From a virus: 64,000 bases of DNA. The position numbers and the translations under genes were made by a program. Below are positions 3,187 to 56,600 of the stretch, in pieces. Position 1 is the stretch's first letter, and each line of letters begins with the position of its first letter. The stretch is from positions 32,001 through 96,000 of IMG/VR virus record IMGVR_UViG_3300028837_000518; one strand, given 5' to 3'. Under the pieces are notes generated by a model. It was not told where the DNA came from. It searched no databases and was given only the letters and a program-made list of their open reading frames with translations.

Positions 3187-3993
3187 ATGACGAAGGAGAA
3201 GTTTACCCCGGTACCCACCAGCAATACTAGCGTGCCAACAGTCAAGCACAAGAAGGTAGTGGTCGCCAAGAAGAAAATTACAGTTACCCAAGATAGTCGG
3301 CCAACGAAGTTTGAGAACCCTATGCTGGCAATGCTACCAGACTTCAAAACGAGACTTGATGCAATAGTTGACCAAGCACCAGTTGAAGTAAGTGGGTTTG
3401 GCAGCATGACTATTCATGAGAGCCGAGCAAGTAATGGTTCGGCACAGCATCTCATTGTGCCGCGCGAGTTGTTTGTTCTCGATCAAACTACAACATCTGG
3501 TTCAGCTGACATAGAACAAGATGCTGTCGGTAACTTCTTCGAGGACTGGGTAACCGAGGGTCGAGATGTAAAAGAGTTACGTGTGTGGTGGCACAGTCAT
3601 GGTAGAGGGGCAAAGCCAGTACCTTCGGCCACAGACTGGTCTACAATTACTCGCTCCTTTGGTCGTGTGCCCTGGTATATTATGCTTATTACCAACAAGG
3701 ACCGTCAATATACAGCATACCTCGTCTTGACTAAGCCGTTTCGGGTAAAGGTTGAGATTGAAGTTGGTTTGTTTGTTGACGCGGCAATACGCGACTGGGC
3801 AAAAAACGAAGTAGAAAAGCATGTTACAACCACAGCTGGATACAAGTATCCAACGGGCAGAAGGTGGGATGGTCGCTTGGCACGTTTTGTTGACGTTGAA
3901 GAGCCTGGTGCGAAACAGGCACAAAGTAAACAGGGAGTTTTGCTACCCAAGGGATCACCTGCGGATAACGAGTGGGAGCGGTGGTCATGGTAG
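3187..3993 (+). CDS. JAB/MPN+ (JAMM) metalloprotease, deubiquitinase-like
   Basis: upstream E (VEVSG) plus WWHSHGRGAKPVPSATD = HxH...SxxD. Confidence 0.85.
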   Translation: MTKEKFTPVPTSNTSVPTVKHKKVVVAKKKITVTQDSRPTKFENPMLAMLPDFKTRLDAIVDQAPVEVSGFGSMTIHESRASNGSAQHLIVPRELFVLDQTTTSGSADIEQDAVGNFFEDWVTEGRDVKELRVWWHSHGRGAKPVPSATDWSTITRSFGRVPWYIMLITNKDRQYTAYLVLTKPFRVKVEIEVGLFVDAAIRDWAKNEVEKHVTTTAGYKYPTGRRWDGRLARFVDVEEPGAKQAQSKQGVLLPKGSPADNEWERWSW

Positions 3994-4658
3994 ATGACAC
4001 CCGACAGTTAGATATTCTTTCGCCCAAGTTTCTACAGGATCGCCATGTTGACCTAATTGGTTGCGGTAGTGTTGGTAGTATGACTGCCTTTGTCCTCTCA
4101 AAAATGGTAGCAGGCGAGGAGGACTTCTCGGTTAGGCTGATTGATGGTGATATAGTAGGGGATGTCAACATTCGACCAAGCCTGTATACACCTGTTGATA
4201 TAGGTATATGTAAGGTCCTTGCGTTACAGCGCCTACTCCTCTACCTATCCAATCTTTCTACCACAGTCTGTAGTGAGTTTGTTGGTCCCGACAACTACCC
4301 TAGTCTCAAAGACATTGTAGTTGTTTCAGTAGATACTATGGCTGTGCGGAAAGATATATGGGAAAACTGTATCGGGCTATACAACCCTCACTGGCTGATA
4401 GATGCCAGAATGGGTGCCGAGATTTGCACTATCGTTACCGTTGATCTTAGTAGTGATGAGCAACGCGAGCGGTACGACGACGAGTTGTTTACTGACGATG
4501 AGGCTAGGCAGTTACCCTGCACTGCACGAGCAATTGCCTACAACACCGCATACATCGCGGCACTCATCGTTAGAACTATAAAGCGTATTCTAGTCGGAGA
4601 GGAGGTGGACTATCAAGTAGATTCAAGTCTAAAGAATCTTGTTATGTTACTTACTTAG
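3987..4658 (+). CDS. ThiF/E1-like ubiquitin-activating (adenylating) enzyme
   Basis: IGCGSVGS nucleotide loop, IDGDIV, VDTMAVR, IDARMG, candidate catalytic Cys in LPCTAR. Confidence 0.88.
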   Translation: MVDDTRQLDILSPKFLQDRHVDLIGCGSVGSMTAFVLSKMVAGEEDFSVRLIDGDIVGDVNIRPSLYTPVDIGICKVLALQRLLLYLSNLSTTVCSEFVGPDNYPSLKDIVVVSVDTMAVRKDIWENCIGLYNPHWLIDARMGAEICTIVTVDLSSDEQRERYDDELFTDDEARQLPCTARAIAYNTAYIAALIVRTIKRILVGEEVDYQVDSSLKNLVMLLT

Positions 4659-4706
4659 CAAATCGTTGATTGTAAAGCTATTCCTAACCTACAAAAGGAG
4701 AGTACA

Positions 4707-4976
4707 GTGTCAGCTGACAAGAGAACTATCCAGCTCAACCCGGACGATGAAGTTGAAGTTCTTGTTCCTTCGGGAGCCAAGGTCACCATCATCACCATGG
4801 ACGACACCCGCGAAGTCGACCCCGGCATCACCGTCGCCGAGGCACTCAACGCGGCCGGTATCGAAGTGCAGTCCGATGAGGTCGTGCGAGTCAACAAGCA
4901 GGCGTGCAGTGACGCGGATCTCACCCTCGACGCCGGTGATGTTCTGTCCGTGGTCCCTCGCGTTCGCGCGGGGTAG
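4707..4976 (+). CDS. ubiquitin-like beta-grasp protein (ThiS/MoaD/Ubl fold)
   Basis: TVAEALNAAGI..VRVN..LDAGDVLSVVPRVRAG-stop; strong AAGGAG RBS; ends in Gly. Confidence 0.8.
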   Translation: MSADKRTIQLNPDDEVEVLVPSGAKVTIITMDDTREVDPGITVAEALNAAGIEVQSDEVVRVNKQACSDADLTLDAGDVLSVVPRVRAG

Positions 4977-5020
4977 TCCTGTAGTAGCTTAGTCTTGGCT
5001 AAGTTAGAGCAGTAGGTCGC

Positions 5021-5054
5021 GGGGTGGTGCAGCCAAGGTTCTGCATCACCCCTT
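5021..5054 (+). terminator. GC-rich hairpin closing the Ubl operon
   Basis: GGGGTGGTGCAG/CTGCATCACCCC 12-bp stem; U-tail is short. Confidence 0.5.
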
Positions 5055-5075
5055 AGACACCCTGGAGGAGTAGAA

Positions 5076-5636
5076 GTGACTGAGAAAGAAGTCTACACTT
5101 TTCATTTCCGTGCCAACATAGAGGGGTTTCAGGTTGTGTAGGCTGACTCCGAAGAAAGTGCACGACGAAAAATCCTTGATAGTGCTCCGGGTGTCGAGGA
5201 ACAACAAGGCGAGTATGACAATTTAGTCTTGACACTGGTAGATGTACGCGAACCACCACGTGATAGACTGGTCTCTCTAGTGTATAGTGACAGTAGAATA
5301 CGTCTCACGGGTGATGAGAGTCGCCCTGTACTCATACAGGTTGCAAAGGGTTATGGTCAGCTCTTCCAACCAATCTGCACTACCATCCCACACTCCTATC
5401 TCAACTCTTATCACAAGTACCTTCACCAAGGTCTTGGTATTGACTGGTTGGACTGTCAACACACCTCTGATTGCATCCAGCGACTACAAGTCGCAGTCGT
5501 ATAACTAGGAGTTGATCGGAGTGAGCCATACATCGCACCAACACCCGGTAACCTTGGATATACCCTTGCTATCCTACTGCGATGGGCGCAACAATGGACT
5601 AATACACAGTTTAGAGTAAGAAAGGTGACTGGGTGA
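5076..5636 (+). pseudogene. interrupted ORF, paralog of 5733-6131 in its 3' half
   Basis: GGAGGAG RBS, GTG 5076; in-frame TAG 5139 and TAA 5502; tail GNLGYTLAILLRWA matches GNAGHTLAVILRWA of the next gene. Confidence 0.6.
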
Positions 5637-5732
5637 GTAAGTTAGGCAGGGTGGCCTTGACGATGTTCCTGTTATTTACCGTAGTAACTCCATTAGTTAT
5701 AGTAGTATTTTGGTAAGCAGAGGGAGAGTCGT

Positions 5733-6131
5733 GTGAGTTATGGTGTCAGTATCAAGGATGTAGAGCAGTATGTGGCAGTGTCGGAGTCTGGCGATGAAAT
5801 CCAGTGTGTGGTAACTACACCGCGCGTATGGATAAGTATACCGTCGGACTATAACACTGTATATCGTAAGTACTTGGACGAGAAGGATGGAATCTTCTGG
5901 TTGCACCATAAGCGTGGCCAAGATTGTGTAGTAAAGCTGGAAGAGGTATTGGCAATTCTTGGCACTATTCGTACCCATGTTTACTGGCAGGGGAGTCGTG
6001 GAAATGCTGGCCACACCCTGGCGGTAATACTACGATGGGCATTATTGTATCCACTTGCAGTATTTGAAGTAACCGAGCACAAAACAGAGGAGGTTAGTAC
6101 GTGGCCACCACCTGGCTTGCATCTGGTGTAA
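5733..6131 (+). CDS. hypothetical phage protein
   Basis: RBS present; paralogous to the upstream pseudogene. Confidence 0.65.
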   Translation: MSYGVSIKDVEQYVAVSESGDEIQCVVTTPRVWISIPSDYNTVYRKYLDEKDGIFWLHHKRGQDCVVKLEEVLAILGTIRTHVYWQGSRGNAGHTLAVILRWALLYPLAVFEVTEHKTEEVSTWPPPGLHLV

Positions 6132-6222
6132 CGGCTTGGGGCACTTTACCAGTTTGGGGTGTGTCCAAGAGTATAGCTGATGAGTGGATTATATCTTGCG
6201 ATAATACTTACTAAAGGTACCT

Positions 6223-6768
6223 ATGGACCCCTACCGCCAACCGAACCGCAAAACTCTGATTGGATTCGGTTACTGCGGTATCAGTGCGTCTTTGACTTCT
6301 GTAGAGCGTATTGTTTACATGACTGGTTGGCCGAGGAACTACGAAGTAACACGGAGTAATAACATGACAGAGTTCTCTATGTCATTCACTAAGCACTGTG
6401 ATTATTGCGGTGAAGAGATAGTTAGAGAAGTAGCTCAACCAACCAATCCTGTAAGCTGGTTTCAAGTACGACTACCTATTCAGGTATCAATGCCTGACCG
6501 CTTACATAACTTCTGTAGAGTCTCGTGTTTACTTCAGTGGGTTGCACAACAGCTAAGTAATGAGAATAGGAAAGCAAGCAGTAGTGAAGATAAGCAGTTG
6601 AATAACCTAGCAATAGACTTGCTTGAGATGGCAAAGTATGCAGCACACCATGCAATCCATAACGATATAGGTGATGGATACTGTCTACTTAGTTATTGCC
6701 CACTTCACTACCCGGCACAGCGGCGTTACCGTGGCTCACTTCTACTGGAGGGCAGTAAAGATGGCTAA
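6223..6768 (+). CDS. hypothetical protein (CxxC..FCxxxC, TRASH-like zinc motif)
   Basis: CDYCG, FCRVSC. Confidence 0.5.
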   Translation: MDPYRQPNRKTLIGFGYCGISASLTSVERIVYMTGWPRNYEVTRSNNMTEFSMSFTKHCDYCGEEIVREVAQPTNPVSWFQVRLPIQVSMPDRLHNFCRVSCLLQWVAQQLSNENRKASSSEDKQLNNLAIDLLEMAKYAAHHAIHNDIGDGYCLLSYCPLHYPAQRRYRGSLLLEGSKDG

Positions 6769-12343: not shown

Positions 12344-12372
12344 TTGACAAGACGTAGAATCTATGCTACAAT
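12344..12372 (+). promoter_or_regulatory. sigma70 promoter for the ORF / Y RNA-tRNA array / rsr unit
   Basis: TTGACA-17 bp-TACAAT with extended -10 TG. Confidence 0.75.
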
Positions 12373-12385
12373 TTTCGGCGCATAA

Positions 12386-13149
12386 TTGCGTGTGCAGGTG
12401 AAACTCCTACGGAAAACACAAATCCAGGAGGCAGTAATGAAGTTCAATAATTTTTCCCTTAGAGTTATCGGAGGGCGCGAGAAAGCAAGTGGTTATGTTG
12501 AGATAACGCATGGCCAGCAATACTCGCTATCCATGCGTAACTTCGATAGTTTACCATGTGATGCAAAAGTAGTAATAGGTGATGTGCATATCGGCACCTG
12601 GCGTATTAGAGGCAATCGCTCCATCATCATTGAGCGGCCAGTAAATGACCAGGGTCGGTTCACCTTCTATAAGGTTGGTTCGAGTGAAGCTGAGAAGATA
12701 GGTGCTACACCGGGTGCGTCCCGTAACGGCCTAATCACGGTTACATTCACGCCAGAAATACCAAAGCCCGTACAACTTATCTACCCCCATCATTCATATA
12801 ACGACCCTTGGCGATGGCGGCCACGATATGATAGTAATTGGCTCTTTTCCTGTGGTTCGAGTACAGGTGGTGGTAGCGTACAGTCGCAGCTGCGGGGCAG
12901 CCCTGTCAGCTTTGGTGATACTCCCGTTACTGCTGATTCGTATGAAGAGGGTGTTTCTGGTCTTTCAGGATATAGTGATCAAAGATTCACCCGCGTTGCA
13001 CCACTTGACTACGATCTAACACGACAGACAACAATATCTTTGCGACTAGTCTGTAGTGACATCAGGGGGGAACCACGACCGCTAGTTTCTTGCGGTAATC
13101 CAGTCCCTCCGCCAGTATAGATATTCTTTAGTTTCTACTGCACACGCAA
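12386..13149. repeat. 20-bp inverted repeat (12386-12405 / 13130-13149) bracketing ORF 12437-13120
   Basis: TTGCGTGTGCAGgtGAAACT vs AGTTTCtaCTGCACACGCAA, 18/20 complementary. Confidence 0.8.
12437..13120 (+). CDS. hypothetical beta-rich protein, first gene of the Ro60/Y RNA unit
   Basis: AGGAGG RBS, ATG 12437; no recognised catalytic motif. Confidence 0.75.
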   Translation: MKFNNFSLRVIGGREKASGYVEITHGQQYSLSMRNFDSLPCDAKVVIGDVHIGTWRIRGNRSIIIERPVNDQGRFTFYKVGSSEAEKIGATPGASRNGLITVTFTPEIPKPVQLIYPHHSYNDPWRWRPRYDSNWLFSCGSSTGGGSVQSQLRGSPVSFGDTPVTADSYEEGVSGLSGYSDQRFTRVAPLDYDLTRQTTISLRLVCSDIRGEPRPLVSCGNPVPPPV

Positions 13150-13151
13150 CA

Positions 13152-13214
13152 CGTCTGGGTCGCCGATTGCTGGTTACCACTTAAATGTTCCAGTAATCAC
13201 GAACTTATCCGGCG
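13152..13214 (+). ncRNA. Y-RNA-like element Y1
   Basis: outer CGUCUGGGU/AUCCGGCG, inner GAUUGCUGG/CCAGUAAUC, GGUUA and CUUAUC motifs. Confidence 0.7.
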
Positions 13215-13226
13215 CTTACTTTAAAC

Positions 13227-13320
13227 ACCACACCGAGCTAGTATTTCTAAAGAAACCGTGCGATCTTTGATTCTAAGATCAAAGATTCTACAACTTCTAA
13301 GTGACAGTCTTGGTGTTGGT
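13227..13320 (+). ncRNA. structured RNA lacking the Y motif, between Y1 and Y2
   Basis: ACCACACCGAG/CUUGGUGUUGGU closing stem; perfect AUCUUUGAU/AUCAAAGAU hairpin. Confidence 0.4.
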
Positions 13321-13322
13321 AC

Positions 13323-13423
13323 GGGTTGGGTCGAAGTATGTCGGTTATCATACATAGTAATAGCATGGGTAAGAGTACGGCTCTACCATGCCCAAACTCG
13401 ACATACATTCCCTTATCCAATCC
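13323..13423 (+). ncRNA. Y-RNA-like element Y2
   Basis: GGGUUGGGU/AUCCAAUCC, GUAUGUCG/CGACAUAC, GGUCGAAG, GGUUAUC, CUUAUC; internal GCAUGG/CCAUGC arm. Confidence 0.8.
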
Positions 13424-13440
13424 ATAATACTTAAATTGTT

Positions 13441-13499
13441 GGCTAGGTCGAAGTATGCTGGTTATCCTCTATGATCCCGGCTACAATCCTTATCTAGCC
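13441..13499 (+). ncRNA. Y-RNA-like element Y3 (minimal)
   Basis: GGCUAGGU/AUCUAGCC, GUAuGCUGG/CCGGCUAC, GGUCGAAG, GGUUAUC. Confidence 0.8.
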
Positions 13500-13502
13500 T
13501 TT

Positions 13503-13575
13503 AGGTAAATAGCTCAGTTGGTAGAGCACTTCTTTTACAAAGAAGAGATCGCAGGTTCGAGTCCTGCTTTGCCTA
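13503..13575 (+). tRNA. tRNA-Val(TAC)
   Basis: full cloverleaf, anticodon loop TT-TAC-AA, T arm GCAGG TTCGAGT CCTGC; no encoded CCA. Confidence 0.92.
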
Positions 13576-13586
13576 CTAAAACTTAA

Positions 13587-13693
13587 TAGATTAGGTCGAA
13601 GAGTATCGGTTATCAAGGCAAGCCGAGAGGTTGGTCTGGTGAGCCAGACTTAACATCGGTTATGAAAACGATCTCACAAACTTATCTAATCTA
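13587..13693 (+). ncRNA. Y-RNA-like element Y4
   Basis: UAGAUUAGGU/AUCUAAUCUA, GAGuAUCG/CGAUCUC, GGUUAUC; long internal arm GGUCUGG/CCAGACU. Confidence 0.8.
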
Positions 13694-13696
13694 CAT

Positions 13697-13768
13697 GGGG
13701 GCGTAGCTTAACGGGAAAGCACCTCTTTTGCAAGGAGGGTACTGGAGGTTCAATTCCTCCCGTCTCCA
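13697..13768 (+). tRNA. tRNA-Ala(TGC)
   Basis: cloverleaf, G3:U70 identity pair, anticodon TGC. Confidence 0.92.
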
Positions 13769-13771
13769 CCT

Positions 13772-13834
13772 CTTGGGTCGAATGCATTGGGTTATTCAAG
13801 GTGAAAACTTCCCAACGCAGTTAACTTATCCAAG
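13772..13834 (+). ncRNA. Y-RNA-like element Y5
   Basis: CUUGGGU/AUCCAAG, UGCaUUGGG/CCCAAcGCA, GGUCGAA, GGUUAU, CUUAUC. Confidence 0.8.
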
Positions 13835-13843
13835 TAATAATAT

Positions 13844-13916
13844 GCGGGAGTAGCTCAGTTGGTAGAGCATCGCCTTGCCAGGGCGAGGGTCACGAGTTCG
13901 AGTCTCGTTTTCCGCT
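13844..13916 (+). tRNA. tRNA-Gly(GCC)
   Basis: cloverleaf, anticodon GCC, U73 discriminator. Confidence 0.92.
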
Positions 13917-13925
13917 TATGTTGTT

Positions 13926-14004
13926 AAGCCGGGTCGAGTTCAGTGGGTTATTGTGTATAATAATCCTTGTGTGTGTTTTCCCACTGGAAAAGTTAACCTG
14001 GCTT
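13926..14004 (+). ncRNA. Y-RNA-like element Y6
   Basis: AAGCCGGGU/ACCUGGCUU, UUCAGUGGG/CCCACUGGA, GGUCGAG, GGGUUAUUG; followed by a U-run. Confidence 0.78.
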
Positions 14005-14051
14005 TTATCTCTCTGGGACGCTTTTCCATCCACCACTACTAGGAGGTTATA

Positions 14052-15752
14052 ATGAGCAATTACGGCCAACACTTCTCTACACAGCAAACCGTCCAGACCG
14101 AGCCCATCCCAGGAAAAGATATGGGAGAAAACTTGGCTGGTGGTTATGCATTCAAGATTGATAAGTGGGCAAGACTTCAGCGTTTTCTTATCCTCGGCGC
14201 GGAAGGCACCTACTATGCTAGCGGTCAAGCAATGACCATTGATAATGCTAACGTAGTAGTGGATTGTATTCGGGAAGATGGCCGGCGAGTGGTAGATAGT
14301 ATTGTTACTACCTCACAAGAGGGTCGTGCGCCCAAGAATGACTCAGCACTATTTGCCCTTCTCATGTGTATGACACCAGACTTTGCCAATCTTGCAACTC
14401 GCCAAGCAGCATTTGCTGCTCTTCCTGCAGTTGCACGAATTGGTACGCACCTATTTAAGTTCTGCTCTGAGGTTGACTCAATGCGGGGTTGGGGACGTGG
14501 GCTACGACGCGCACTCTCTAGGTGGTACAACTCTAAAGCTCCTGCTCGCCTTGCATACCAAGTTGTAAAGTATCAGCAGCGGCATGGCTGGACCCACAGA
14601 GATGTATTGCGCAAGGCTCACCCAGTCCCCTTATCGGATGCGCACAAGATTATCTATCACTACATAACTCAAAAGGAGCTACCATGTAGTCTCGCGCAGA
14701 CAGAGGGTGGTGTGGATATGTTGTATGCCTTCGAGTCTATCAAACGGGCCGAGAGTGTTAATCAGGCCACACAACTAATCCGTGAATTCAGACTTCCTCG
14801 CGAGGCAGTGCCAACTCGATTCTTGAATGATAGTGCTATTTGGCAAGCACTACTAGAATCTATGCCTATGACCGCCATGATTCGCAACCTTGCCAAGATG
14901 ACCAGTATTGGTCTACTTGCTCCCTTGTCGTTCGCAGCTAACTTTGTAGTAAAGCAATTAGGTAATGCAGATTATCTGAGACGCGCACGCGTTCACCCAT
15001 TCTCTGTATTTCTTGCGTTGCGAACCTACGCGATGGGTTGCGGTATTCGTGGTAAGCTTCGGTGGGAACCAGTACCTGCCATAGTAGATGCGCTTGACAA
15101 GGCTTTTTACTTGTGTTTTGATAATGTTGAGCCAACTGGAAAGCGTATAGTAATCGGCGTTGATGTCTCGGGTAGCATGAGTGCGCCGATACTCGCTGAT
15201 CCTAATACACAATTCATGGTACCGGGGCCACCATCAGTCCTGGAGGCCGCTGCTGCAATTGCGTTAGTTACTAACGCTGTGGAACCCAATAGTACTATAG
15301 TAGCATTCTCGCATGATATAGTACCAATCACTATTACACCGCGCCAGCGGATTGATAACCTTTGCAACGAGCTACGCGGCCTACCAATGGGCAATACAGA
15401 CTGTGCTCTACCCATGCTTTGGGCGCTAGGTTATGCGCCCGATGTACGTGGTGGTATTCACAGATGGTTCCGTCACCCCTGCGATTATAAGAAAGTTAGG
15501 GACAACGTTATCGAGGCTGATGTTTTCATAGTAATTACCGACAACGAGACTTGGTTTGGCAAGATACACCCTGTGCAGGCACTAAACAAGTATCGAAAGC
15601 AAACAGGTATTGACGCCAAGCTAGTTGTTCTCGCTATGACCTCTACCGGATTTTCTATAGCTGACCCCAATGATTCTGGAATGCTTGATATTTGTGGTAT
15701 GGATAGCGCTGTTCCCACACTTATCTCTGACTTTATAAGTGGCAGAGTTTAG
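14052..15752 (+). CDS. rsr: Ro60/Rsr TROVE-domain RNA-binding protein with vWA domain
   Basis: LQRFLILG..GTYY, GWGRGLRRA, KYQQRHGWTHRDVLRKAHP, MTAMIRNL, MIDAS DVSGSM and TDNET. Confidence 0.95.
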   Translation: MSNYGQHFSTQQTVQTEPIPGKDMGENLAGGYAFKIDKWARLQRFLILGAEGTYYASGQAMTIDNANVVVDCIREDGRRVVDSIVTTSQEGRAPKNDSALFALLMCMTPDFANLATRQAAFAALPAVARIGTHLFKFCSEVDSMRGWGRGLRRALSRWYNSKAPARLAYQVVKYQQRHGWTHRDVLRKAHPVPLSDAHKIIYHYITQKELPCSLAQTEGGVDMLYAFESIKRAESVNQATQLIREFRLPREAVPTRFLNDSAIWQALLESMPMTAMIRNLAKMTSIGLLAPLSFAANFVVKQLGNADYLRRARVHPFSVFLALRTYAMGCGIRGKLRWEPVPAIVDALDKAFYLCFDNVEPTGKRIVIGVDVSGSMSAPILADPNTQFMVPGPPSVLEAAAAIALVTNAVEPNSTIVAFSHDIVPITITPRQRIDNLCNELRGLPMGNTDCALPMLWALGYAPDVRGGIHRWFRHPCDYKKVRDNVIEADVFIVITDNETWFGKIHPVQALNKYRKQTGIDAKLVVLAMTSTGFSIADPNDSGMLDICGMDSAVPTLISDFISGRV

Positions 15753-32551: not shown

Positions 32552-33220
32552 ATGAAATACCATAAGATAAAGACAGTGTATAAGCGAAACCCAGATGACA
32601 AGTACCGCACTCTTATCGAGGGCGTATATAGTACGGAGACGCTAGAGTATTTGGCCGACAACAGATGGGAATGGACAGAGAAAGTTGATGGAACAAACAT
32701 TCGAGTAGTGTGGGATGGAAAACTGGCGCGGTTTGCGGGACGAACAGATAAGGCGCAATTATACGCACCTCTCGTTAGTCGTTTACAGGATTTGTTTACA
32801 GCAGAGAAGTTAGGTATATTCGGTGCTGGCGATATACCTGCTGTCTTTCATCTCTTTGGCGAGGGATATGGGGCTAGAATACAGAATGGTGGCGGTAATT
32901 ACATTCCAGATGGCGTGGACTTTATACTCTTCGACGTGCTAGTTACACCTAGTCCAGGTGTACCGGGCACTGTCCTCTGGTTAAGTCGCTTTAACATTGA
33001 GAATATAGCAGAGAAGCTGGGCATTCAAGCTGTTCCTATAGTGGGGCGCGGCACACTATCAGAGGCTATAAATCTTGCACGAACAGGGTTTGAATCACTT
33101 ATTGCAGCCACATCAACCATAGCTGAAGGATTAGTAATGCGTCCAGCCGTAGAGTTAATTGATCGTCGCGGAGACAGGGTTATGTGCAAGATTAAGCACA
33201 AGGACTTTCCTGTGGAATGA
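32552..33220 (+). CDS. RNA ligase (Rnl2-like nucleotidyltransferase domain)
   Basis: motif I EKVDGTN, GEGYG, FDV, EGLV, KIK. Confidence 0.8.
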   Translation: MKYHKIKTVYKRNPDDKYRTLIEGVYSTETLEYLADNRWEWTEKVDGTNIRVVWDGKLARFAGRTDKAQLYAPLVSRLQDLFTAEKLGIFGAGDIPAVFHLFGEGYGARIQNGGGNYIPDGVDFILFDVLVTPSPGVPGTVLWLSRFNIENIAEKLGIQAVPIVGRGTLSEAINLARTGFESLIAATSTIAEGLVMRPAVELIDRRGDRVMCKIKHKDFPVE

Positions 33221-35805: not shown

Positions 35806-35997
35806 GTGGAGGGTATGATGGAAGATATAGGTGTGGCGTATTTAGCAGCGGTGATGTTTGCGGGGGTGGTTGCTAGTATAGCAATAATGGTCGATGAAAG
35901 ACGTGGCACTTTCTCTAGGTTTTTTGCTATCCTAACAACAATTGCTTGTTACGCGGGAATGTTCCGTTATCTACGCCAGTTCTTCAAGGGAGGGTGA
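35806..35997 (+). CDS. small two-TM membrane protein
   Basis: two hydrophobic helices. Confidence 0.55.
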   Translation: MEGMMEDIGVAYLAAVMFAGVVASIAIMVDERRGTFSRFFAILTTIACYAGMFRYLRQFFKGG

Positions 35998-35998
35998 G

Positions 35999-37558
35999 AT
36001 GAAGGTAGGGATAACCAATTTTGTTAAACTTGGCGCGCTAGTACGCGATGGTGTTACAGACTGGTTAGAGTACGGGAATGTGCGTGCCGTGTACCACGAG
36101 GGACTAGTTCTGTTTAACTATACAGCAAAAGCACAGTTCCAGAATCGCTGGAACTGGTTTGAGCGTGTGAGTCGCGGGCTAATTTTAGACGCAACCACTG
36201 GCAAGGTTATAGCTCGCCCCTTCGACAAGTTCTGGAACTGGGGTGCATTCGGGCGGACGACTGACGCGGACTTGATTGAGGTAACAGAGAAGCTAGATGG
36301 GTGTTTTACTGGCTATACAAAACTAAATCTATGGGGTGGTGGTACAATTCCTATTAGGGAAGTAGTAAAAAAGCAACTAGCAGTAACACTTATAGGGATA
36401 AATAAGAGTGGGCAAGTTGTTCCTGCAAAAGTTGTTGACTGGTTCAACAACGGTACAAAAACTGAGTGGCTTTTACTGACGGTAGATTGTGATGTCTCTA
36501 AGCTATCAGGAACTCGGACAGGGAACCATATTGTTGTTACACCTAATCACCATATACTCCTAAACGGACGATACCAACCAGTAGTTAATGCAAGACCAGG
36601 TGATTATGTTTTAAACTATGGATGGTGGCCAGATGATCGTCAGCAAGGCAAACTTATACGGCGAGTAAAAGAGGTGAAAGTTCTTGACATACAGCATCTT
36701 AAACATGATGGTTCACACTCACACTTTTCCGCTGGGCGTGTTGGTTTCGATGTAGAGACAACGACGGGAAATTATTTTGCTAAGGGTGTCTTAGTACATA
36801 ATTCGCTTGGCATTATGTACTGGCATGAAGGCAAGTACAAGATTGCCACACGCGGATCATTCACAAGCGAACAGGCGTTGTGGGCGACAGAGTATTTGAA
36901 TACGAACTATGATCTTAGTACTTGTGATTTTCCTGGCACATTGCTTTTTGAGATAATCTACCCAGAAAATCGTGTCGTGGTGGATTATGGTAGGCAGCAT
37001 GAAGACTTGGTGTTAATCGGAATACGGCTGCGTGAATCAGATTATGATGCCCTTTATCCTCATTTGGAATATTTTGCTCAGAAATACGGATTTACTTTGC
37101 CTCAGACCTATGAATTCTCTGACATAGCCAGCATTCTCGCCGCCCGCGAAGAGATTGTAGGCACTGAGCAAGAGGGCTGGGCACTACGGTTTGCTGATGG
37201 GCAACGATTTAAAGTGAAGGGAACGTCCTACCTAACACTACATCGTTTGGTTAGTCGTGCAACATATCCTGCTGTAGTTAAGGCTATGATGCGAGGCGAG
37301 TTGGACGAAACATTGCAAGATTTGCCCAGCGAGCTATCGGGCGAGATCGTAGAATGGCGGGACATAACTAATGAGAGAGTGGCGCACATAAAACGGTGCG
37401 TTGAGCTGAACTTTGCCATTGCGCCACAGGGAAGTCGGAAAGAGTTTGCTATATGGGCTAATACGGTTTTCCCAAGTCTCGCTCCATATCTATTCAGGCG
37501 GCTAGATGGGTGCGACTATACACAGTTGATCTATAAGAATATTCTAAAGGAGTGCTAG
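35999..37558 (+). CDS. T4 Rnl1-type RNA ligase containing an intein
   Basis: SRGLIL, RPFDKFWN, EKLDG|SLG, ATRGSF, FEIIYPENRVVVDY, EGW, KVK. Confidence 0.9.
   Translation: MKVGITNFVKLGALVRDGVTDWLEYGNVRAVYHEGLVLFNYTAKAQFQNRWNWFERVSRGLILDATTGKVIARPFDKFWNWGAFGRTTDADLIEVTEKLDGCFTGYTKLNLWGGGTIPIREVVKKQLAVTLIGINKSGQVVPAKVVDWFNNGTKTEWLLLTVDCDVSKLSGTRTGNHIVVTPNHHILLNGRYQPVVNARPGDYVLNYGWWPDDRQQGKLIRRVKEVKVLDIQHLKHDGSHSHFSAGRVGFDVETTTGNYFAKGVLVHNSLGIMYWHEGKYKIATRGSFTSEQALWATEYLNTNYDLSTCDFPGTLLFEIIYPENRVVVDYGRQHEDLVLIGIRLRESDYDALYPHLEYFAQKYGFTLPQTYEFSDIASILAAREEIVGTEQEGWALRFADGQRFKVKGTSYLTLHRLVSRATYPAVVKAMMRGELDETLQDLPSELSGEIVEWRDITNERVAHIKRCVELNFAIAPQGSRKEFAIWANTVFPSLAPYLFRRLDGCDYTQLIYKNILKEC
36302..36802 (+). 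mobile_element. mini-intein (167 aa) in the RNA ligase
   Basis: C1 (CFTGYT), block B VTPNH, terminal GVLVHN followed by Ser. Confidence 0.9.
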
Positions 37559-47440: not shown

Positions 47441-49813
47441 GTGAGTAAAATACTTCTCCTTAATCCTCCCGTCCATCACTACACAGGTTTTCAGTTTAAG
47501 ATTAACCCCACTCTTGGCCTAGCTATTATAGCGTCACTATTGGATACAGCAGGACACTCAGTGAAGGTAATAGACTTAGAAGCTGTCGGAATAACGCCCA
47601 ATAAACTACATGCCTACTTTAAAAATAACAAAGATAATTGGCCAGACATAGTAGGATTTACTGCGTTATCAGTAGCTGCGCGTGGATGTAAAGAATCTAT
47701 CAGTGCTATACGTGCAGCAGGATACAATAAAAAAGTTATGGTTGGCGGTATATATGCTACGCTATCCCCACAAGAGCTGATAAACGAGGGCGCTGACTTA
47801 GTTGTTACGGGTGAATGTGAGGGGAATATTGTTGAAGTAGTAGATAATGATATTGTTGGTGTAGTAAGCGGTACAGCAGCACCTATTGCAGATATTCCCA
47901 TACCTCTTTGGAATAAGCATGTTCCCACAATCAATACCTACCAGGGTAATCAACCTCATATTGGCTGGCCCGAAACCGTAACCATGTTTACACGCGGATG
48001 TCCACATCGTTGTATCTTCTGCGTAACCGGTGATACACGTATAGAGACGCTTGCAGGTAGTAAAACCATTATTGAAATTAGCAAGGGTGACGAGGTGCTT
48101 ACCGCCAATGGTGTAGCTGCTATACAAGACAAGCAAATACTAAAAGCTACAAACGGTCTTATAGAGATAAATGTCCAAGGTATGTTTAACAACTTAAGAC
48201 TTACACCAGACCATAAAGTATTAGCCATTCGATATAAAGCACTTAACCGTATGGCCTCGGCAGCCAATGTAAAACACCGACCGGCATGGATACAGGAAGA
48301 GACGCCGCATTTCGTGCAAGCCGGTAAGTTACAGAAGGGTGACTTTTTAATTGCCCCCTATCCCACTAAAACTGTTCCAACCCACTATTCTGAAAGTGAC
48401 TTTGAGCTTTTCGGACTATATATAGCAGAGGGACATATAAGTAAACAATTGCATCGCAAGAATTACTATATGCTTGTATTAACTTTATCAGCTCGTGAAG
48501 GGGCTTTGGCTAACCATGCATTAAAACTACTACGTAAATTCCTTGCAACAGATAAGGGAAGCATCTATCATAATCAGTGCAACAATACACTACAGGTTAC
48601 AATAGGAGGGCGCAATAAGATTCTATGGTTTAGGGAAACGTTCAGAACAGGCGCAAAACACAAGACACTTCCACCTTGGGCGCTTTTAGCACCTAGGGCA
48701 CATCAGATTGCCCTACTACGAGGTATGTTTTGGGGTGACGGACATAATTCCCATAGCGGCATTCGTTACACAACCGTATCACGAGTTCTTGCAGAGCAAT
48801 TGCGACTGATACTATTGCGTACAGGCGGTGTTCCTAATCTTTTTCAGACTCCTGCCAATAAACGACCTAATCAGATACAAGGACGAACTGTAAATGTAAG
48901 TGATACTTACGTTGTTACCCTATTTGGACCGGTAGCCGATGAAATGCGTCATGAGTTCAATTGGGTTATTCGTAACGATAGTGCTAACCGGCGTTTTAAT
49001 CGAGCTTATAACGTAGCGGGCAAGGGTTATGCGCTCTATCCTATTCAAGCTATTAACAAAACGCCGTATGAAGGTGTAGTGTATGACTTAACTACTAATG
49101 GAACATTTGTTGCAAATGGAGTGGCTATCTCGAACTGCGCCAATACTATATTCGGACACCAACCCATTAGGTTTCGACCGCCCGAGAACATTGAGCAAGA
49201 ACTTAGATTCGACAAGGACCAGTTTGGAATTCAGTCACTGTTTGTTTATGATGATGAACTCTTTGGCTGCAAGTACTCAAGTGGTTGGTTTGCGGAAGTG
49301 ATGGAGCGAATAACACCACTAGAACTCACGTGGAAAGCACAGGGTCGGTGCTCGGAGCGCTATGTAACCTCCGATGTTTTAGAAAAAGCATACGCAGCCG
49401 GTTGTCGTGCTATCATGTGGGGCATTGAAAGTTTCAGTCCTAAAGTCCTAGATGCTATAAAGAAAGATACAAAAGTTAGCGACATATGGGCAACTCTTAA
49501 GCGAGCCAAAGCCGCAGGTATTAAAAACTGGGCTTTCACAATGATTGGTAACTATAAGGAGACTGAGCGTGACTTGGCCATAACAGCTGCCGCTCTAGAG
49601 AAAGCTAAGGGTATGGGGTTAATTGACTGGCGTCAAACTACTATCGTTACTTCGTGGCCGGGAACAGAACTGTGGGATATTCAAGAACGTGAGGGTTGGC
49701 TGACACCGCCACCTGATACAGGACCGCAGACACAGCAAGTATATGCCGATACACCTTGGTTAACTAAAAAACAGATGTTATATTGGCTGGGAAAGTTTTC
49801 TACCATTTGTTAG
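47441..49813 (+). CDS. cobalamin-binding radical SAM enzyme containing an intein
   Basis: PTLGLAIIAS, VGGIYAT, GECE; TRGCPHRCIF|C; DDE, GIESFS. Confidence 0.9.
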   Translation: MSKILLLNPPVHHYTGFQFKINPTLGLAIIASLLDTAGHSVKVIDLEAVGITPNKLHAYFKNNKDNWPDIVGFTALSVAARGCKESISAIRAAGYNKKVMVGGIYATLSPQELINEGADLVVTGECEGNIVEVVDNDIVGVVSGTAAPIADIPIPLWNKHVPTINTYQGNQPHIGWPETVTMFTRGCPHRCIFCVTGDTRIETLAGSKTIIEISKGDEVLTANGVAAIQDKQILKATNGLIEINVQGMFNNLRLTPDHKVLAIRYKALNRMASAANVKHRPAWIQEETPHFVQAGKLQKGDFLIAPYPTKTVPTHYSESDFELFGLYIAEGHISKQLHRKNYYMLVLTLSAREGALANHALKLLRKFLATDKGSIYHNQCNNTLQVTIGGRNKILWFRETFRTGAKHKTLPPWALLAPRAHQIALLRGMFWGDGHNSHSGIRYTTVSRVLAEQLRLILLRTGGVPNLFQTPANKRPNQIQGRTVNVSDTYVVTLFGPVADEMRHEFNWVIRNDSANRRFNRAYNVAGKGYALYPIQAINKTPYEGVVYDLTTNGTFVANGVAISNCANTIFGHQPIRFRPPENIEQELRFDKDQFGIQSLFVYDDELFGCKYSSGWFAEVMERITPLELTWKAQGRCSERYVTSDVLEKAYAAGCRAIMWGIESFSPKVLDAIKKDTKVSDIWATLKRAKAAGIKNWAFTMIGNYKETERDLAITAAALEKAKGMGLIDWRQTTIVTSWPGTELWDIQEREGWLTPPPDTGPQTQQVYADTPWLTKKQMLYWLGKFSTIC
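48020..49135 (+). mobile_element. intein (372 aa) with LAGLIDADG homing endonuclease
   Basis: CVTGDT start, LTPDH, LFGLYIAEGH and LLRGMFWGDGH, ends GVAISN|C. Confidence 0.9.
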
Positions 49814-53603: not shown

Positions 53604-56600
53604 ATGGTAAACTCCGTTGTAAAACGCGATGGGCGTACTGTGCCCTTCAAACAAGAAAGAATTACAAATGCCATTTTTAAGGCTGCGCAAGCCGTAGGTG
53701 GTGAAGATCGTGAACGTGCAGTTCTAATTTCTACTGCCGTAGTAGATAGTCTTAATGCGCAGTTTACTGACGATAACATACCAAGTGTTGAGCAGATTCA
53801 AGATACCGTAGAGAAGATACTTGTTGCGTATGGTCACGCAAAGACAGCAAAGGCGTTTATTCTCTATCGTGACCTGCACAGTAAATTGCGTGATATTCAC
53901 GCACTAATAGATGCTAACGAGCTAGTACAAGGGTACTTAGATCGCCTAGACTGGCGAGTTAATGAGAACTCGAACATGAGTTACTCGCTACAGGGGCTCA
54001 ATAACCATATTTTTACTGCTGTGAATAATGCTTACTGGCTCAATCAACTATATCCTCGCAATATCCGTAATGCACACATGAATGGCGATATTCACATCCA
54101 TGACCTCTACCTACTGGCAGCATATTGTTGTGGCTGGAGCTTAGAGGACTTGTTGCTTCGTGGCTTTGGTGGTGTGCCGGGTAAGCTAGAGTGTAGTCCG
54201 CCTCGGCACTTTCGCTCCGCTTTGGGTCAAATTGCTAACTTTCTTTATACTGTTCAGGGCGAGGTGGCGGGCGCAGTAGCAATTAGTAGTTTTGATACAC
54301 TGCTTGCACCTTATGTTTGGGCTGATGACTTGGAATATGATGAAGTCAAACAAGCTATGCAAGAGTTCATCTTTAACATGAACGTGCCTACGCGAGTAGG
54401 GTTTCAGTGCTTCTCAGAGGATACTGAGATTCTAACTAGTTATGGGTGGCGAAGTTACCAAGATGTAAAAGTTGACGACGCTATAGCTACATATAATCCC
54501 GATACTGAAATAATAGAGTATCTCCCGGTACTACGAATGTTTAGTGCACCATACTCGGGAATAATGTACAACCTAAAAAACAGAGTGAATGACCAGCTTA
54601 TATCACCTGGGCATAGAGTTGTAAGGCGGGGGTTCAACAATAACAAGAAGATTACTATTCAGCCAATTGAGCAAGTACTAGAGTATAATTCGCCAGTTTG
54701 CATACCACTCCTGACAGGCGGAAACTCTATGGGTAGCAGCGAGCTAAATAATGACCTCGTTCGTATTGCTGCATGGATTATCTCAGATGGAACTTGGGAT
54801 AAAACTGGTAGAGGTTTTGGAAGAATAACCATTTTCCAAAATAAAGACAAACACCCCGATGCATACCAGGAGATTATAGAAATCCTTGACAGACTTGAAT
54901 TGGTCTACTCTATTAATGATAGCACTACTGGGTTTGGCTCAGTAACTCAAATACGTATTGACACACCTGGCTCACGACAGTTGGTAGAGAGTTTATGGAA
55001 AACTAGCAAAGACCAGGGCCTAAAGTTTATTCCAGAATGTATATTAAACGCAGATACCCGCCTTTCACGTCTTTTCATAGAAACTTACTTAAAAGGTGAT
55101 GGCGATACCATCAGAGTAAGAACATCTACAGCGAGTAAAGAAATCAGGGATGGCTTGATCCATGTAGGAATAAATGCGGGCTTTATGTGTACAGTCTTTA
55201 CGCGGGAATTTGATGGTCATTCGACCAATAAACAGGACTTATATGTTATTAATTTCCTCCGTTCAGAAAATACATATATTCAGGGAGTACGAGAAGTTCC
55301 TTATGAAGGTATAATTTGGTGTCCAACTACTAAGAACGATACTGTTATAGCGCGACGAAATGGAAAGACATTTATCACGGGAAACACACCATTCTCAAAT
55401 ATTACTATGGATGTACAGGTTCCCGCACACTTAGCTGATGGTAGTGTTGTCTTAGCTGGTGCATATAATCCACATACATATGGCGAGTTTCAAGAACAGG
55501 TTAATATGATTAATCGTGCATTCGCCGAGGTAATGCTGGAAGGCGATGCCAGCGGGCGAGTGTTTACTTTTCCTATACCTACATACAATATCACAGCTGA
55601 CTTTGAATGGAATAATCCTAGCCTTGACGCTATGTGGCAAATGACGGGTAAGTATGGCATTCCCTACTTTGCCAACTTTGTCAACTCTAATATGAATTTA
55701 GAAGATACGCGTTCTATGTGTTGCCGGCTTCATATCAATACCAGTGAGCTAAACAAGCGTGGCGGTGGGCTTTTTGGTTCAAATCCGCTAACGGGAAGCC
55801 TGGGTGTAGTTACGCTGAATATGGCACGCATAGGATACACAAGCGATACGGACGAGGAGTTTCTAAATCGCGTAGCCGAACTAATGGATATAGCGCGCGA
55901 CAGCCTACTCCTCAAGCGACAGGTTATAGAGGGCTTTACAGAAAAAGGGTTGTATCCCTACTCTAAGTATTACCTCAATAATGTAAAGAGGCGTTTTGAC
56001 TCCTACTGGGCCAATCACTTTAACACCATCGGCGTCATTGGTATGAACGAGGCGCTACGTAACTTTATGAATGTAGACTTAACTAGTGAAGTTGGTCGCG
56101 CCTTTACATTGCACGTTCTTGACTTTATGCGTAAACGGCTACTGGCATATCAAGAAGAAACTGGCCAGATGTTTAACCTTGAAGCCACACCGGGGGAAGG
56201 CGCATCCTATCGCCTTGCACTACTAGATAAAGAAAGATTCCCCAATGCCTTCACGGCTGGACAAAATGTGCCATACTACACCAACTCTACGCAGTTGCCT
56301 GTAGATGCAACTGATGACCTATTTGAGGCGCTTGGCTGGCAGGATGAGATTCAAACTCAGTACACTGGCGGCACAGTCTTTCACGCTTATCTGGGCGAAA
56401 GCCTATCAAATACAACTCTGATTAAGCAAGTTGTCAGGACTATAGCTCTTCGATTTCGTCTGCCATACTTTACTATTACACCAACATTTAGTATCTGTCC
56501 CGAGCATGGATATATCACGGGGGAACACTTTACTTGCCCAACGTGCGAATCTGACTGTGAAGTTTACTCAAGGGTGGTTGGTTATATACGACCGGTGAAG

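What the first reader, a model, noticed from the sequence alone, without database searches (positions are those of the whole stretch)
13152..15752. Array of six Y-RNA-like ncRNAs with variable cargo loops directly upstream of a viral Ro60/Rsr
Seen: six 59-107 nt elements (13152, 13323, 13441, 13587, 13772, 13926) share one architecture: outer stem ending GGU, CG(A)(A), an 8-9 bp inner stem, invariant GGUUA, a variable domain, the inner stem partner, then (C)UUA(U/A)C and the outer stem partner. Stem sequences differ between copies yet pair almost perfectly, which is built-in covariation. The C of GGUCG is bulged against UUAUC. Known: Ro60 binds a bulged-C helix formed by the Y RNA ends, and bacterial rsr loci typically have one or two adjacent Y RNAs, often the tRNA-mimic YrlA. 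From memory, vertebrate Y RNAs read GGUCCGA..GUGGGUUAU, close to Y6 (GGUCGAGUUCAGUGGGUUAUUG). Inference: a modular viral RNP system in which one Ro60 ring is loaded with six different RNA adaptors (tethers, decoys or guides). These lack the YrlA tRNA-like module and look more like animal Y RNAs.
Basis: partly seen in the sequence, partly recalled or inferred. Interest (0 to 1): 0.93.

Follow-up and report, generated by a model that had tools for sequence, protein, structure and literature searches.

The report
Phage Ro60 gene with six Y RNAs
A complete 109-kb phage genome carries, just upstream of its Ro60 gene, six small hairpin RNAs with the Ro60-docking helix of Y RNAs, with three ordinary tRNA genes between the last four; this is a well-supported but expanded example of a known protein-RNA partnership, and such arrays are common beside Ro60 genes in other phages and bacteria.

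Summary
Six elements share one architecture: a lower stem ending GGU, a bulged C, G.U plus A-U pairs, an internal loop, an 8-9 bp upper stem, then GUUA and a variable head. A covariance model built from three copies recovered the other three and nothing else in the genome. 13 of 20 pairs show compensatory changes. The downstream ORF is a full Ro60 (TROVE + Ro60 vWA). It keeps the residues at the X. laevis positions that I recall as the Y-RNA and misfolded-RNA binding sites.

The array is not unique. The same model finds elements on the Ro60 strand in 61 of 81 other viral Ro60 loci (up to 6 per locus) and in 63 of 80 bacterial loci (up to 10). Earlier rounds of this scan noted similar arrays on other DNA.

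Published precedents are the D. radiodurans Yrn2-tRNAAsp-Yrn1 precursor, YrlA/YrlB, and Thermus phage phiLo Yrl1/Yrl2.

What differs here:
- six copies, all short;
- no tRNA-like module (no YrlA match);
- real tRNAs as likely processing punctuation.

Different partners for the six heads is inference only, and no loop complementarity to the phage genome was found. Verdict: a new variant of a known kind, of moderate interest.

The parts
12344..12372 (+). Sigma-70-like promoter (TTGACA, 17 nt, TG-n-TACAAT). It is the only + strand promoter-like site found upstream of the array.
   Evidence: 11 of 12 hexamer matches with an extended -10 TG. No other + strand promoter-like site and no + strand terminator-like site lies between here and the Ro60 gene.
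12386..12405 (+). 5' arm of a long-range duplex that brackets the first ORF. It pairs with 13130-13149.
   Evidence: inverted repeat I1, 20 nt, 90% complementary, with a 12-nt exact core. About 0.09 such cores are expected in this 1.76-kb stretch (my estimate).
12437..13120 (+). First ORF of the unit, a hypothetical protein. It is 227 aa from the ATG behind the RBS CCAGGAGG; the ORF listing gives 244 aa from the TTG at 12386.
   Evidence: for the ORF and RBS. No Pfam or PHROG family. The protein atlas returns only hypothetical viral and bacterial clusters. It is not conserved beside Ro60 in 81 other viral loci.
13130..13149 (+). 3' arm of the long-range duplex. It ends 2 nt before Y1.
13152..13214 (+). 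Y1, a short Y-like RNA. Its core reads GGUCGCC (deviant), its upper stem is 9 bp and its loop is 16 nt.
   Evidence: 43-65 bits.
13227..13320 (+). Long imperfect hairpin in the Y1-Y2 spacer. It has no Y motif; it may be a further small RNA or a processing site.
   Evidence: folding 13215-13322 gives -31.2 kcal/mol, z -4.3. No Rfam match.
13323..13423 (+). Y2. Core GGUCGAAG, an 8-bp upper stem and a 53-nt head with its own hairpin.
   Evidence: (held-out hit, E 2.5e-8).
13441..13499 (+). Y3. Core GGUCGAAG and a 15-nt head. It lies 3 nt upstream of tRNA-Val.
13503..13576 (+). tRNA-Val (UAC). CCA is not encoded.
   Evidence: (75.3 bits).
13587..13693 (+). Y4. Core GGUCGAAG and a 58-nt head with a hairpin. 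It lies 10 nt after tRNA-Val and 3 nt before tRNA-Ala.
   Evidence: (held-out hit, E 6.7e-6).
13697..13770 (+). tRNA-Ala (UGC).
   Evidence: (64.4 bits).
13772..13834 (+). Y5. Core GGUCGAAUG and a 19-nt head. It lies 1-3 nt after tRNA-Ala and 9 nt before tRNA-Gly.
13844..13916 (+). tRNA-Gly (GCC).
   Evidence: (63.6 bits).
13926..14004 (+). Y6. Core GGUCGAG, upper stem UCAGUGGG/CCCACUGG and a 32-nt U/G-rich head, followed by UUUU. It is the copy most like metazoan Y RNA.
   Evidence: Rfam Y_RNA 29.9 bits, E 0.0011, full length; held-out hit, E 8.4e-5.
14041..14046 (+). AGGAGG ribosome-binding site of the Ro60 gene, 5 nt before the ATG.
   Evidence: Read directly from the sequence.
14052..15752 (+). 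Ro60/Rsr orthologue, 566 aa, with TROVE and Ro60-type vWA domains and an intact MIDAS motif (DVSGSM).
   Evidence: human Ro60 9NEN at 7e-120, X. laevis 1YVP at 9e-120, D. radiodurans Rsr 2NVO at 1e-98, with K170/R174/H187 equivalents conserved.

Best explanation
The six elements are phage-encoded Y RNAs of the short, tRNA-module-free type, and they are partners of the phage's own Ro60.

Shown:
- They share a covarying two-stem scaffold. Its sequence-invariant core (GGU, bulged C, GA on the 5' strand; UUAUC on the 3' strand) has the layout of the Ro60-docking helix of metazoan and bacterial Y RNAs.
- They occur only next to Ro60 and on its strand.
- The same scaffold recurs beside Ro60 genes in most related phage and bacterial loci.
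- The Ro60 is intact and keeps the Y-RNA-binding lysine and arginine and the cavity histidine.

Inferred:
- The unit is transcribed from the promoter at 12344-12372 as one precursor: ORF, Y1, hairpin, Y2, Y3, tRNA-Val, Y4, tRNA-Ala, Y5, tRNA-Gly, Y6, Ro60.
- RNase P cuts at the tRNA 5' ends and RNase Z or exonucleases trim at the tRNA 3' ends. This releases Y3 to Y6 with tails of only 1-10 nt.
- The 20-bp duplex flanking the first ORF may give an RNase III-type cut that frees Y1.
- Each Y RNA then docks by its conserved helix on the outer face of a Ro60 ring. It gates the ring's cavity and presents a different head.

By analogy with D. radiodurans and Thermus phage phiLo, at least some heads would tether host 3'-to-5' exonucleases such as PNPase. 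The phage would thereby reshape or police structured RNA, probably including tRNA, during infection. The genome also encodes two RNA ligases and five tRNAs.
For: Structure and specificity:
- Three copies predict the other three, with nothing else in the window or the genome.
- 13 of 20 pairs are compensatory among the six. Across 94 distinct viral sequences, 19 of 20 pairs are compensatory and 92.8% of cells are paired, against at most 47.7% with partners slid.

Association with Ro60:
- R3 gives 167 hits in 82 sources (the window and 81 other viral loci), 166 of them on the Ro60 strand.
- 61 of 81 other viral loci have at least one element. 99 of 112 upstream elements end within 700 nt of the Ro60 start.
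- In 80 bacterial loci there are 189 hits, all on the Ro60 strand.

Identity of the core:
- GUCGAAG or GUCGAAUG in Y2-Y5 fits the published GNCGAAN0-1G motif of bacterial Y RNAs (PMC4201824).
- Y6 aligns full length to Rfam Y_RNA with the bulged C in register.

Protein:
- TROVE plus vWA_Ro60.
- The KYxQR motif and the histidine align with X. laevis K170, R174 and H187. Their roles in binding are from my memory of Sim et al. 2009 and Stein et al. 2005.

Processing:
- Gaps between Y elements and tRNAs are 1-10 nt here.
- Genuine tRNAs lie within 20 nt of a Y element in 16 of 122 non-redundant loci.
- There is one strong promoter and no terminator across the unit.
- D. radiodurans makes Yrn2, tRNA-Asp and Yrn1 from one precursor.

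Function by analogy:
- phiLo Ro60 binds two upstream Yrl RNAs and assembles with host PNPase in vitro.
- A Ro60-like gene next to tRNAs in phage Bas63 counters a host defence.
- RNA ligase genes lie at 32552-33220 and 35942-37558.
Against: - There are no expression, end-mapping or binding data for this uncultivated phage.
- No copy reaches a curated Rfam threshold: Y_RNA 29.9 against 38 bits, and no YrlA match.
- Y1 (GGUCGCC) and Y6 (GGUCGAG, with a C/A mismatch instead of a bulge) depart from the core.
- The Ro60 mRNA must be read through the array, so some copies, above all Y6 which ends 47 nt before the ATG, could act in cis.
- Nothing shows that the six heads bind different partners.
- Pair counts were made on model-fitted alignments, which favours pairing.
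Confidence: 0.75

Rival explanations
1. The hairpins are mainly cis-acting leader elements. Ro60 binds its own polycistronic transcript, especially Y6 just upstream of the RBS, and feeds back on its own translation or mRNA stability. They would not make free adaptor RNAs.
For: No promoter or terminator separates the array from Ro60. In 112 of 132 non-redundant viral cases the elements lie upstream of Ro60, and the last one often ends 10-65 nt before the start.
Against: 20 of 132 elements lie downstream of Ro60. Six copies are more than feedback needs. tRNA processing would cut the array away from the mRNA. Characterised upstream Y RNAs in D. radiodurans and M. smegmatis are processed into stable free RNAs.
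Confidence: 0.12
2. The variable heads are antisense guides that direct Ro60, or a tethered nuclease, to particular phage or host RNAs.
For: The heads differ completely between copies while the scaffold stays constant.
Against: Against the phage genome with the array region masked, the longest perfect complementarity of each head was 9-12 nt. This is within the shuffled expectation in 11 of 12 tests. The exception (12 nt, minus strand, 4% of shuffles) does not survive 12 tests. The Y2 match of 9 nt to the tRNA D-arm is at chance level: about 6 such inverted 9-mers are expected in 1.76 kb (my estimate). The host genome is unknown, so host targets are untested. The heads of Y2 and Y4 are largely folded on themselves.
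Confidence: 0.07
3. The RNAs are decoys that soak up a host factor, such as host Rsr, PNPase or another RNase or defence sensor, rather than serving the phage Ro60.
For: High copy number suits titration. phiLo Yrl RNAs bind PNPase on their own in vitro.
Against: The strict linkage to a phage-encoded Ro60 gene on the same strand in 61 of 81 viral loci points to a cognate protein partner. The phage Ro60 keeps its Y-RNA-binding residues.
Confidence: 0.05
4. The similarity is chance, or the elements are generic repeated hairpins such as terminators or REP-like repeats.
For: None beyond the fact that short hairpins are common.
Against: The held-out copies were recovered at E 1e-5 to 1e-8. The other 62 kb of the window give no hits. 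The strand bias is 166:1 in viral loci and 189:0 in bacterial loci. Covariation is strong.
Confidence: 0.01

Closest known systems
Deinococcus radiodurans rsr locus: Yrn2, tRNA-Asp and Yrn1 made as one precursor upstream of Rsr (Chen et al. 2014, PMC4201824)
   Same: There are several Y RNAs upstream of the Ro60 gene on its strand. A genuine tRNA lies between Y RNAs in one polycistronic precursor. Both strands of the Ro60-binding helix resemble the metazoan one. Yrn2 is a simple long hairpin, like the copies here.
   Different: D. radiodurans has two accepted Y RNAs plus three weaker RNAs; here there are six clear copies. Yrn1 has tRNA-like features and none of these does. That locus is cellular and stress-induced, this one is viral. 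Processing here is inferred, not shown.
Thermus phage phiLo Ro60 with Yrl1 and Yrl2 (PMC12135203; PDB 9KOP, 9L5Y)
   Same: A phage-encoded Ro60 has Y-like RNAs directly upstream. The RNAs have a stem, bulge, stem layout with a CGAA motif. Binding and assembly with host PNPase were shown in vitro, which gives the working model used here.
   Different: phiLo has two RNAs, this phage has six. No tRNAs are reported between the phiLo RNAs. phiLo Ro60 did not appear among the sequence matches in the PDB search at E 0.001, so the two proteins are distant.
YrlA and YrlB of Salmonella, M. smegmatis and mycobacteriophages (Rfam RF02553; Chen et al. 2014)
   Same: The RNAs are encoded next to rsr. The 5' strand of the docking helix carries a GNCGAAN0-1G motif. 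The long elements (130-165 nt) in other viral loci of my survey match RF02553 at 35-55 bits and carry T-arms. The short copies resemble YrlB-type long hairpins.
   Different: The defining tRNA-like module is absent from all six copies, and RF02553 finds nothing here. [quoted passage not shown]
Metazoan Y RNAs and nematode stem-bulge RNAs (Rfam RF00019, RF01656)
   Same: The lower stem is formed by the RNA ends. A bulged C is followed by G.U and A-U pairs, then an asymmetric internal loop, an upper stem and GUUAU(C). Y6 aligns over the whole Y_RNA model.
   Different: Scores are below threshold. There is no RNA polymerase III context and no La-binding biology. The elements are made from a polycistronic bacterial-type operon.

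Membership tests
Rfam Y_RNA (RF00019) | Covariance-model score at or above the gathering score of 38 bits | tested here: not met
   Y6 scores 29.9 bits (E 0.0011, model positions 1-96). The other five give no match at E up to 10.
Rfam Y_RNA (RF00019) | Helix formed by the 5' and 3' ends, with a bulged C and conserved GGUC(C)GA / UU..AC strands | tested here: met
   The bulged C is in register with the model's bulge. The core pairs are invariant in 5-6 of 6 copies. Y6 has a C/A mismatch instead of a bulge.
YrlA (Rfam RF02553) | Covariance-model score at or above 69 bits | tested here: not met
   the best match in the whole genome is 16 bits and lies outside the array. Inside the array there are only 11-bit fragments on the tRNAs.
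YrlA (Rfam RF02553) | tRNA-like module (T-arm and D-arm) in the head | tested here: not met
   none of the six has a GG-UUCRANY-CC T-arm. By contrast, 19 of 29 long elements in other viral loci have one.
Bacterial Y RNA (Chen et al. 2014 criteria) | GNCGAAN0-1G motif on the 5' strand of the docking helix | tested here: met
   Read. Y2, Y3 and Y4 have GUCGAAG and Y5 has GUCGAAUG. Y6 (GUCGAG) and Y1 (GUCGCC) deviate by one and two bases.
Bacterial Y RNA (Chen et al. 2014 criteria) | Encoded within a few kb of the Ro60 gene | tested here: met
   All six lie 47-900 nt upstream of Ro60 on its strand.
Y RNA (functional definition) | Stable small RNA bound by Ro60 through the bulged helix | not testable with these tools
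   This needs RNA-seq or Northern blots, plus RIP or EMSA.
Ro60/Rsr protein | TROVE HEAT-repeat ring plus a Ro60-type vWA domain with MIDAS | tested here: met
   PF05731 at 8e-42 and PF25045 at 2e-57. DVSGSM and TDNET are present.
Ro60/Rsr protein | Residues equivalent to X. laevis K170 and R174 (Y RNA binding) and H187 (cavity) | tested here: met
   In the alignment, KYQQR...KAH aligns with KYKQR...LSH. These are K173, R177 and H190 here, and they are invariant or nearly so in 21 homologues. The functional roles are recalled from memory.

The most novel reading that the evidence does not exclude
One phage Ro60 ring is reprogrammed by a set of six adaptor RNAs. Their different heads would recruit different host nucleases or RNA substrates. 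Together with the co-transcribed tRNAs and the phage's two RNA ligases, this would form an RNA-surveillance and repair hub that counters host defences attacking tRNA or other RNA. The genuine tRNAs in the array would take the place of the tRNA-like module that other Y RNA sets carry.
Probability: 0.2. Interest if true: 0.75.

Novelty: new variant of a known kind. Interest (0 to 1): 0.45.

Why it matters
Ro60 and Y RNAs are conserved from bacteria to humans, and Ro60 is a major lupus and Sjogren autoantigen. What decides a Y RNA's job is still unclear.

A compact natural set offers a tractable system for asking what the head of a Y RNA does and how Y RNAs are matured. It has six Y RNAs with one docking helix and six different heads, made together with tRNAs and one Ro60.

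The survey made here also shows that multi-copy Y RNA arrays beside Ro60 are the rule rather than the exception in uncultivated phages and bacteria. There are up to 6 in phages and up to 10 in a Chloroflexota genome. I found no paper that describes this.

It is not a new kind of system.

Tried and rejected
- A hand-written motif-and-stem scan was too strict and found only Y2.
- MAFFT on all six copies did not align the 3' strand of the upper stem. I therefore seeded the model from the three short copies with a hand-drawn structure.
- Head complementarity to the phage genome was not above shuffles.
- I tested whether genuine tRNAs next to Y elements replace the tRNA-like module. There is no significant inverse association: Fisher p 0.33 for viral loci and 0.39 overall.
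- Neighbouring proteins (the 244-aa ORF, the downstream 156-aa ORF, the 215-aa ORF and the RuvB-like ATPase) are not conserved beside Ro60 in other viral loci. Only a Dam methylase gave one weak hit.
- The first ORF has no family in Pfam, PHROGs or the protein atlas.
- The 9-nt match of the Y2 head to the tRNA D-arm is at chance level.
- The Annual Review on bacterial Ro60 (PMC10870794) and the supplements of Chen et al. 2014 are not held.
- Four literature searches found no description of multi-copy phage Y RNA arrays.
Full report
WHAT IS THERE

The window is bases 32001-96000 of a complete 109,319-bp virus record. The record has 144-bp direct terminal repeats, 46.7% G+C and five tRNA genes.

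At the reported place I find the six elements: Y1 13152-13214, Y2 13323-13423, Y3 13441-13499, Y4 13587-13693, Y5 13772-13834 and Y6 13926-14004. Each pairs its two ends.

Read by hand and confirmed by the covariance-model alignments, the common plan is:
- a lower stem of 7-10 bp ending G-C, G.U, U-A;
- an unpaired C;
- G.U and A-U pairs (GA opposite UU);
- an asymmetric internal loop;
- an upper stem of 8-9 bp;
- GUUA(U/C), then a head of 15 to 58 nt.

Two copies deviate. Y1 reads GGUCGCC. In Y6 the C faces an extra A.

They sit only 1-10 nt from Y3, Y4, Y5 and Y6.

The ORF 14052-15752 is a full Ro60, with TROVE at 8e-42 and Ro60-type vWA at 2e-57.

IS IT MORE THAN CHANCE

Yes.
- A model built from Y1, Y3 and Y5 alone recovered Y2, Y4 and Y6 at E 2.5e-8 to 8.4e-5 in the 64-kb window searched on both strands. 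The next hit was at 12 bits, E 0.9.
- A model of all six finds exactly six places in the whole genome.
- Among the six, 89.8% of pair cells are standard pairs. Column shuffles give 71.7% and slid partners give at most 48.7%.
- 13 of 20 pairs change on both sides, while the core pairs stay fixed.
- Fixed core and free stems are what a sequence-specific protein site in a structural scaffold should look like.
- These counts come from a model-fitted alignment, which favours pairing. The held-out recovery does not share that weakness.

RELATIVES

The Ro60 has 51-53% identical homologues in metagenomes. A profile of 21 of them retrieved 80 viral loci (460 viral stretches encoded a relative) and 80 bacterial loci.

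Viral loci:
- The six-copy model hit 113 places in 81 other viral loci, 112 on the Ro60 strand.
- A family model built from 107 hits gave 167 hits at E up to 0.01 in 82 sources (the window and 81 other viral loci), 166 on the Ro60 strand. In the window it hit only the six known elements.
- Counting the best 150, 61 of 81 other viral loci have at least one element. The distribution is 0:20, 1:13, 2:29, 3:8, 4:8, 5:1, 6:2. The two six-copy loci are duplicates of one virus.
- 99 of 112 upstream elements end within 700 nt of the Ro60 start, many within 10-65 nt.
- Across 94 distinct viral sequences, 92.8% of cells pair and 19 of 20 pairs show compensatory change.
- The family consensus keeps GGG(C/U)-C-GA on the 5' strand, GGUUAUC after the upper stem, and CUU-GCCC on the 3' strand.

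Bacterial loci (Chloroflexota, Armatimonadota, Verrucomicrobiota, Myxococcota, Gemmatimonadota and others):
- The same model gave 189 hits at E up to 0.001, all on the Ro60 strand. One Chloroflexota locus has up to 10.
- Counting the best 150, 63 of 80 loci have at least one element.

So the six-copy array is at the upper end for phages, but it is not exceptional in nature. Earlier rounds of this scan also reported Ro60-linked RNA arrays on other DNA.

TWO CLASSES, AND WHERE THIS ARRAY FALLS

Viral elements fall into two size classes: short (60-80 nt) and long (130-165 nt). 19 of 29 long ones carry a canonical T-arm. They match Rfam YrlA at 35-55 bits, which is significant but below the gathering score of 69. 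These are divergent YrlA-type tRNA mimics.

None of the six copies here has a T-arm. YrlA finds nothing in this genome. The array is therefore made only of the simple hairpin type, comparable to YrlB or Yrn2.

Rfam's metazoan Y_RNA model aligns Y6 end to end (29.9 bits against a threshold of 38), with the bulged C in register and CAGUGGGUUAU matching the consensus.

THE PROTEIN

By sequence the phage Ro60 is closer to human and Xenopus Ro60 (about 1e-119) than to D. radiodurans Rsr (1e-98). Its KYQQR...KAH aligns with Xenopus K170, R174 and H187. These positions are invariant or nearly so in 21 homologues.

From memory, K170/R174 are needed for Y RNA binding and H187 for binding misfolded RNA in the cavity. 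That recollection is a lead, not a test. The MIDAS motif is intact.

HOW IT LIKELY WORKS

One strong sigma-70-like promoter lies at 12344-12372. No other + strand promoter-like or terminator-like site lies between it and Ro60. The unit would be: a hypothetical ORF (12437-13120), Y1, a long hairpin (13227-13320; z -4.3), Y2, Y3, tRNA-Val, Y4, tRNA-Ala, Y5, tRNA-Gly, Y6, RBS, Ro60.

The tight spacing means that ordinary tRNA maturation would by itself free Y3 to Y6. RNase P would cut at the 5' ends, and RNase Z or trimming would act at the 3' ends, since CCA is not encoded.

The same close Y-tRNA packing recurs in six other viral loci and in nine bacterial loci. D. radiodurans makes Yrn2, tRNA-Asp and Yrn1 from one precursor (PMC4201824).

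A 20-nt, 90% complementary duplex joins 12386-12405, just after the predicted transcription start, to 13130-13149, which ends 2 nt before Y1. This looks like an RNase III-type processing stem.

The mature RNAs would dock on Ro60 through the invariant core. For the role of the heads I rely on analogy:
- The D. radiodurans Y RNA tethers PNPase to Rsr.
- phiLo Ro60 binds two upstream Yrl RNAs and assembles with host PNPase in vitro.
- A Ro60-like gene beside tRNAs in phage Bas63 counters a host defence.

This phage also carries two RNA ligase genes, one of them Rnl1-like with an intein. That fits an RNA repair or surveillance role but does not prove one.

WHAT I COULD NOT SUPPORT

- The guide idea. 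Head complementarity to the phage genome is no better than shuffled heads, and the 9-nt Y2 match to the tRNA D-arm is at chance level.
- The idea that real tRNAs substitute for the missing tRNA-like module. There is no significant inverse association across 122 loci.
- The flanking proteins are not conserved with Ro60. The conserved module is Ro60 plus the RNAs, often with tRNAs.

COMPARISON AND NOVELTY

Already published:
- phage-encoded Ro60 with adjacent Y-like RNAs (Chen et al. 2014; phiLo 2025);
- a tRNA co-transcribed between Y RNAs;
- the use of several Y RNAs per species.

Different here:
- six clear copies;
- three genuine tRNAs as probable punctuation;
- a docking helix retained on both strands, as in metazoans and Deinococcus.

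I found no paper describing multi-copy arrays of this short type in phages. No Rfam family captures them.

I class this as a new variant of a known kind, with interest 0.45. The mechanism is plausible and directly testable. The surprise to a specialist is moderate.

Noticed in passing
window 12386-12405 and 13130-13149: A 20-nt, 90% complementary long-range duplex brackets the first ORF of the unit. It runs from just after the predicted transcription start to 2 nt before Y1. It is a candidate RNase III-type processing stem.
   Followed up: partly
window 13227-13320: The Y1-Y2 spacer folds into a long imperfect hairpin (-31.2 kcal/mol, z -4.3). It has no Y motif and no Rfam match. It may be a seventh small RNA or a processing element.
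   Followed up: partly
window 32552-33220 and 35942-37558: There are two RNA ligase genes. One is of the PF09414 type. The other is T4 Rnl1-like and interrupted by a Hint/intein module. Together they suggest an RNA repair toolkit in the same phage.
   Followed up: partly
window 47441-49813: A B12-binding radical SAM protein carries an intein with a LAGLIDADG endonuclease. An anaerobic ribonucleotide reductase NrdD (53604-56684) and other radical SAM genes suggest an anaerobic host.
   Followed up: no
L001:3555-3678 and L001:3770-3894: In an AT-rich 161-kb viral contig, two tRNA-shaped genes lie between Y-like elements upstream of Ro60. Each has a 58-62 nt insert in place of the anticodon loop (Rfam tRNA 48 and 44 bits). 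The inserts contain Y-like half motifs (GUACGAA..GGAUUAUC and GCACGGA..GGGUUAUC). This may be an inverse nesting of the YrlA design.
   Followed up: partly
L094 (Chloroflexota MAG) 3385-6564; L090; L087; L157: Bacterial Ro60 loci hold 6 to 10 Y-type elements in a row. They mix short hairpins with T-arm-bearing YrlA-type copies. This is far more than the one or two usually cited.
   Followed up: partly
window 15426-15512 (Ro60 residues 459-487): The phage Ro60 has an insertion of about 30 residues in the vWA domain relative to human, Xenopus and Deinococcus Ro60. The HMMER alignment breaks there.
   Followed up: no
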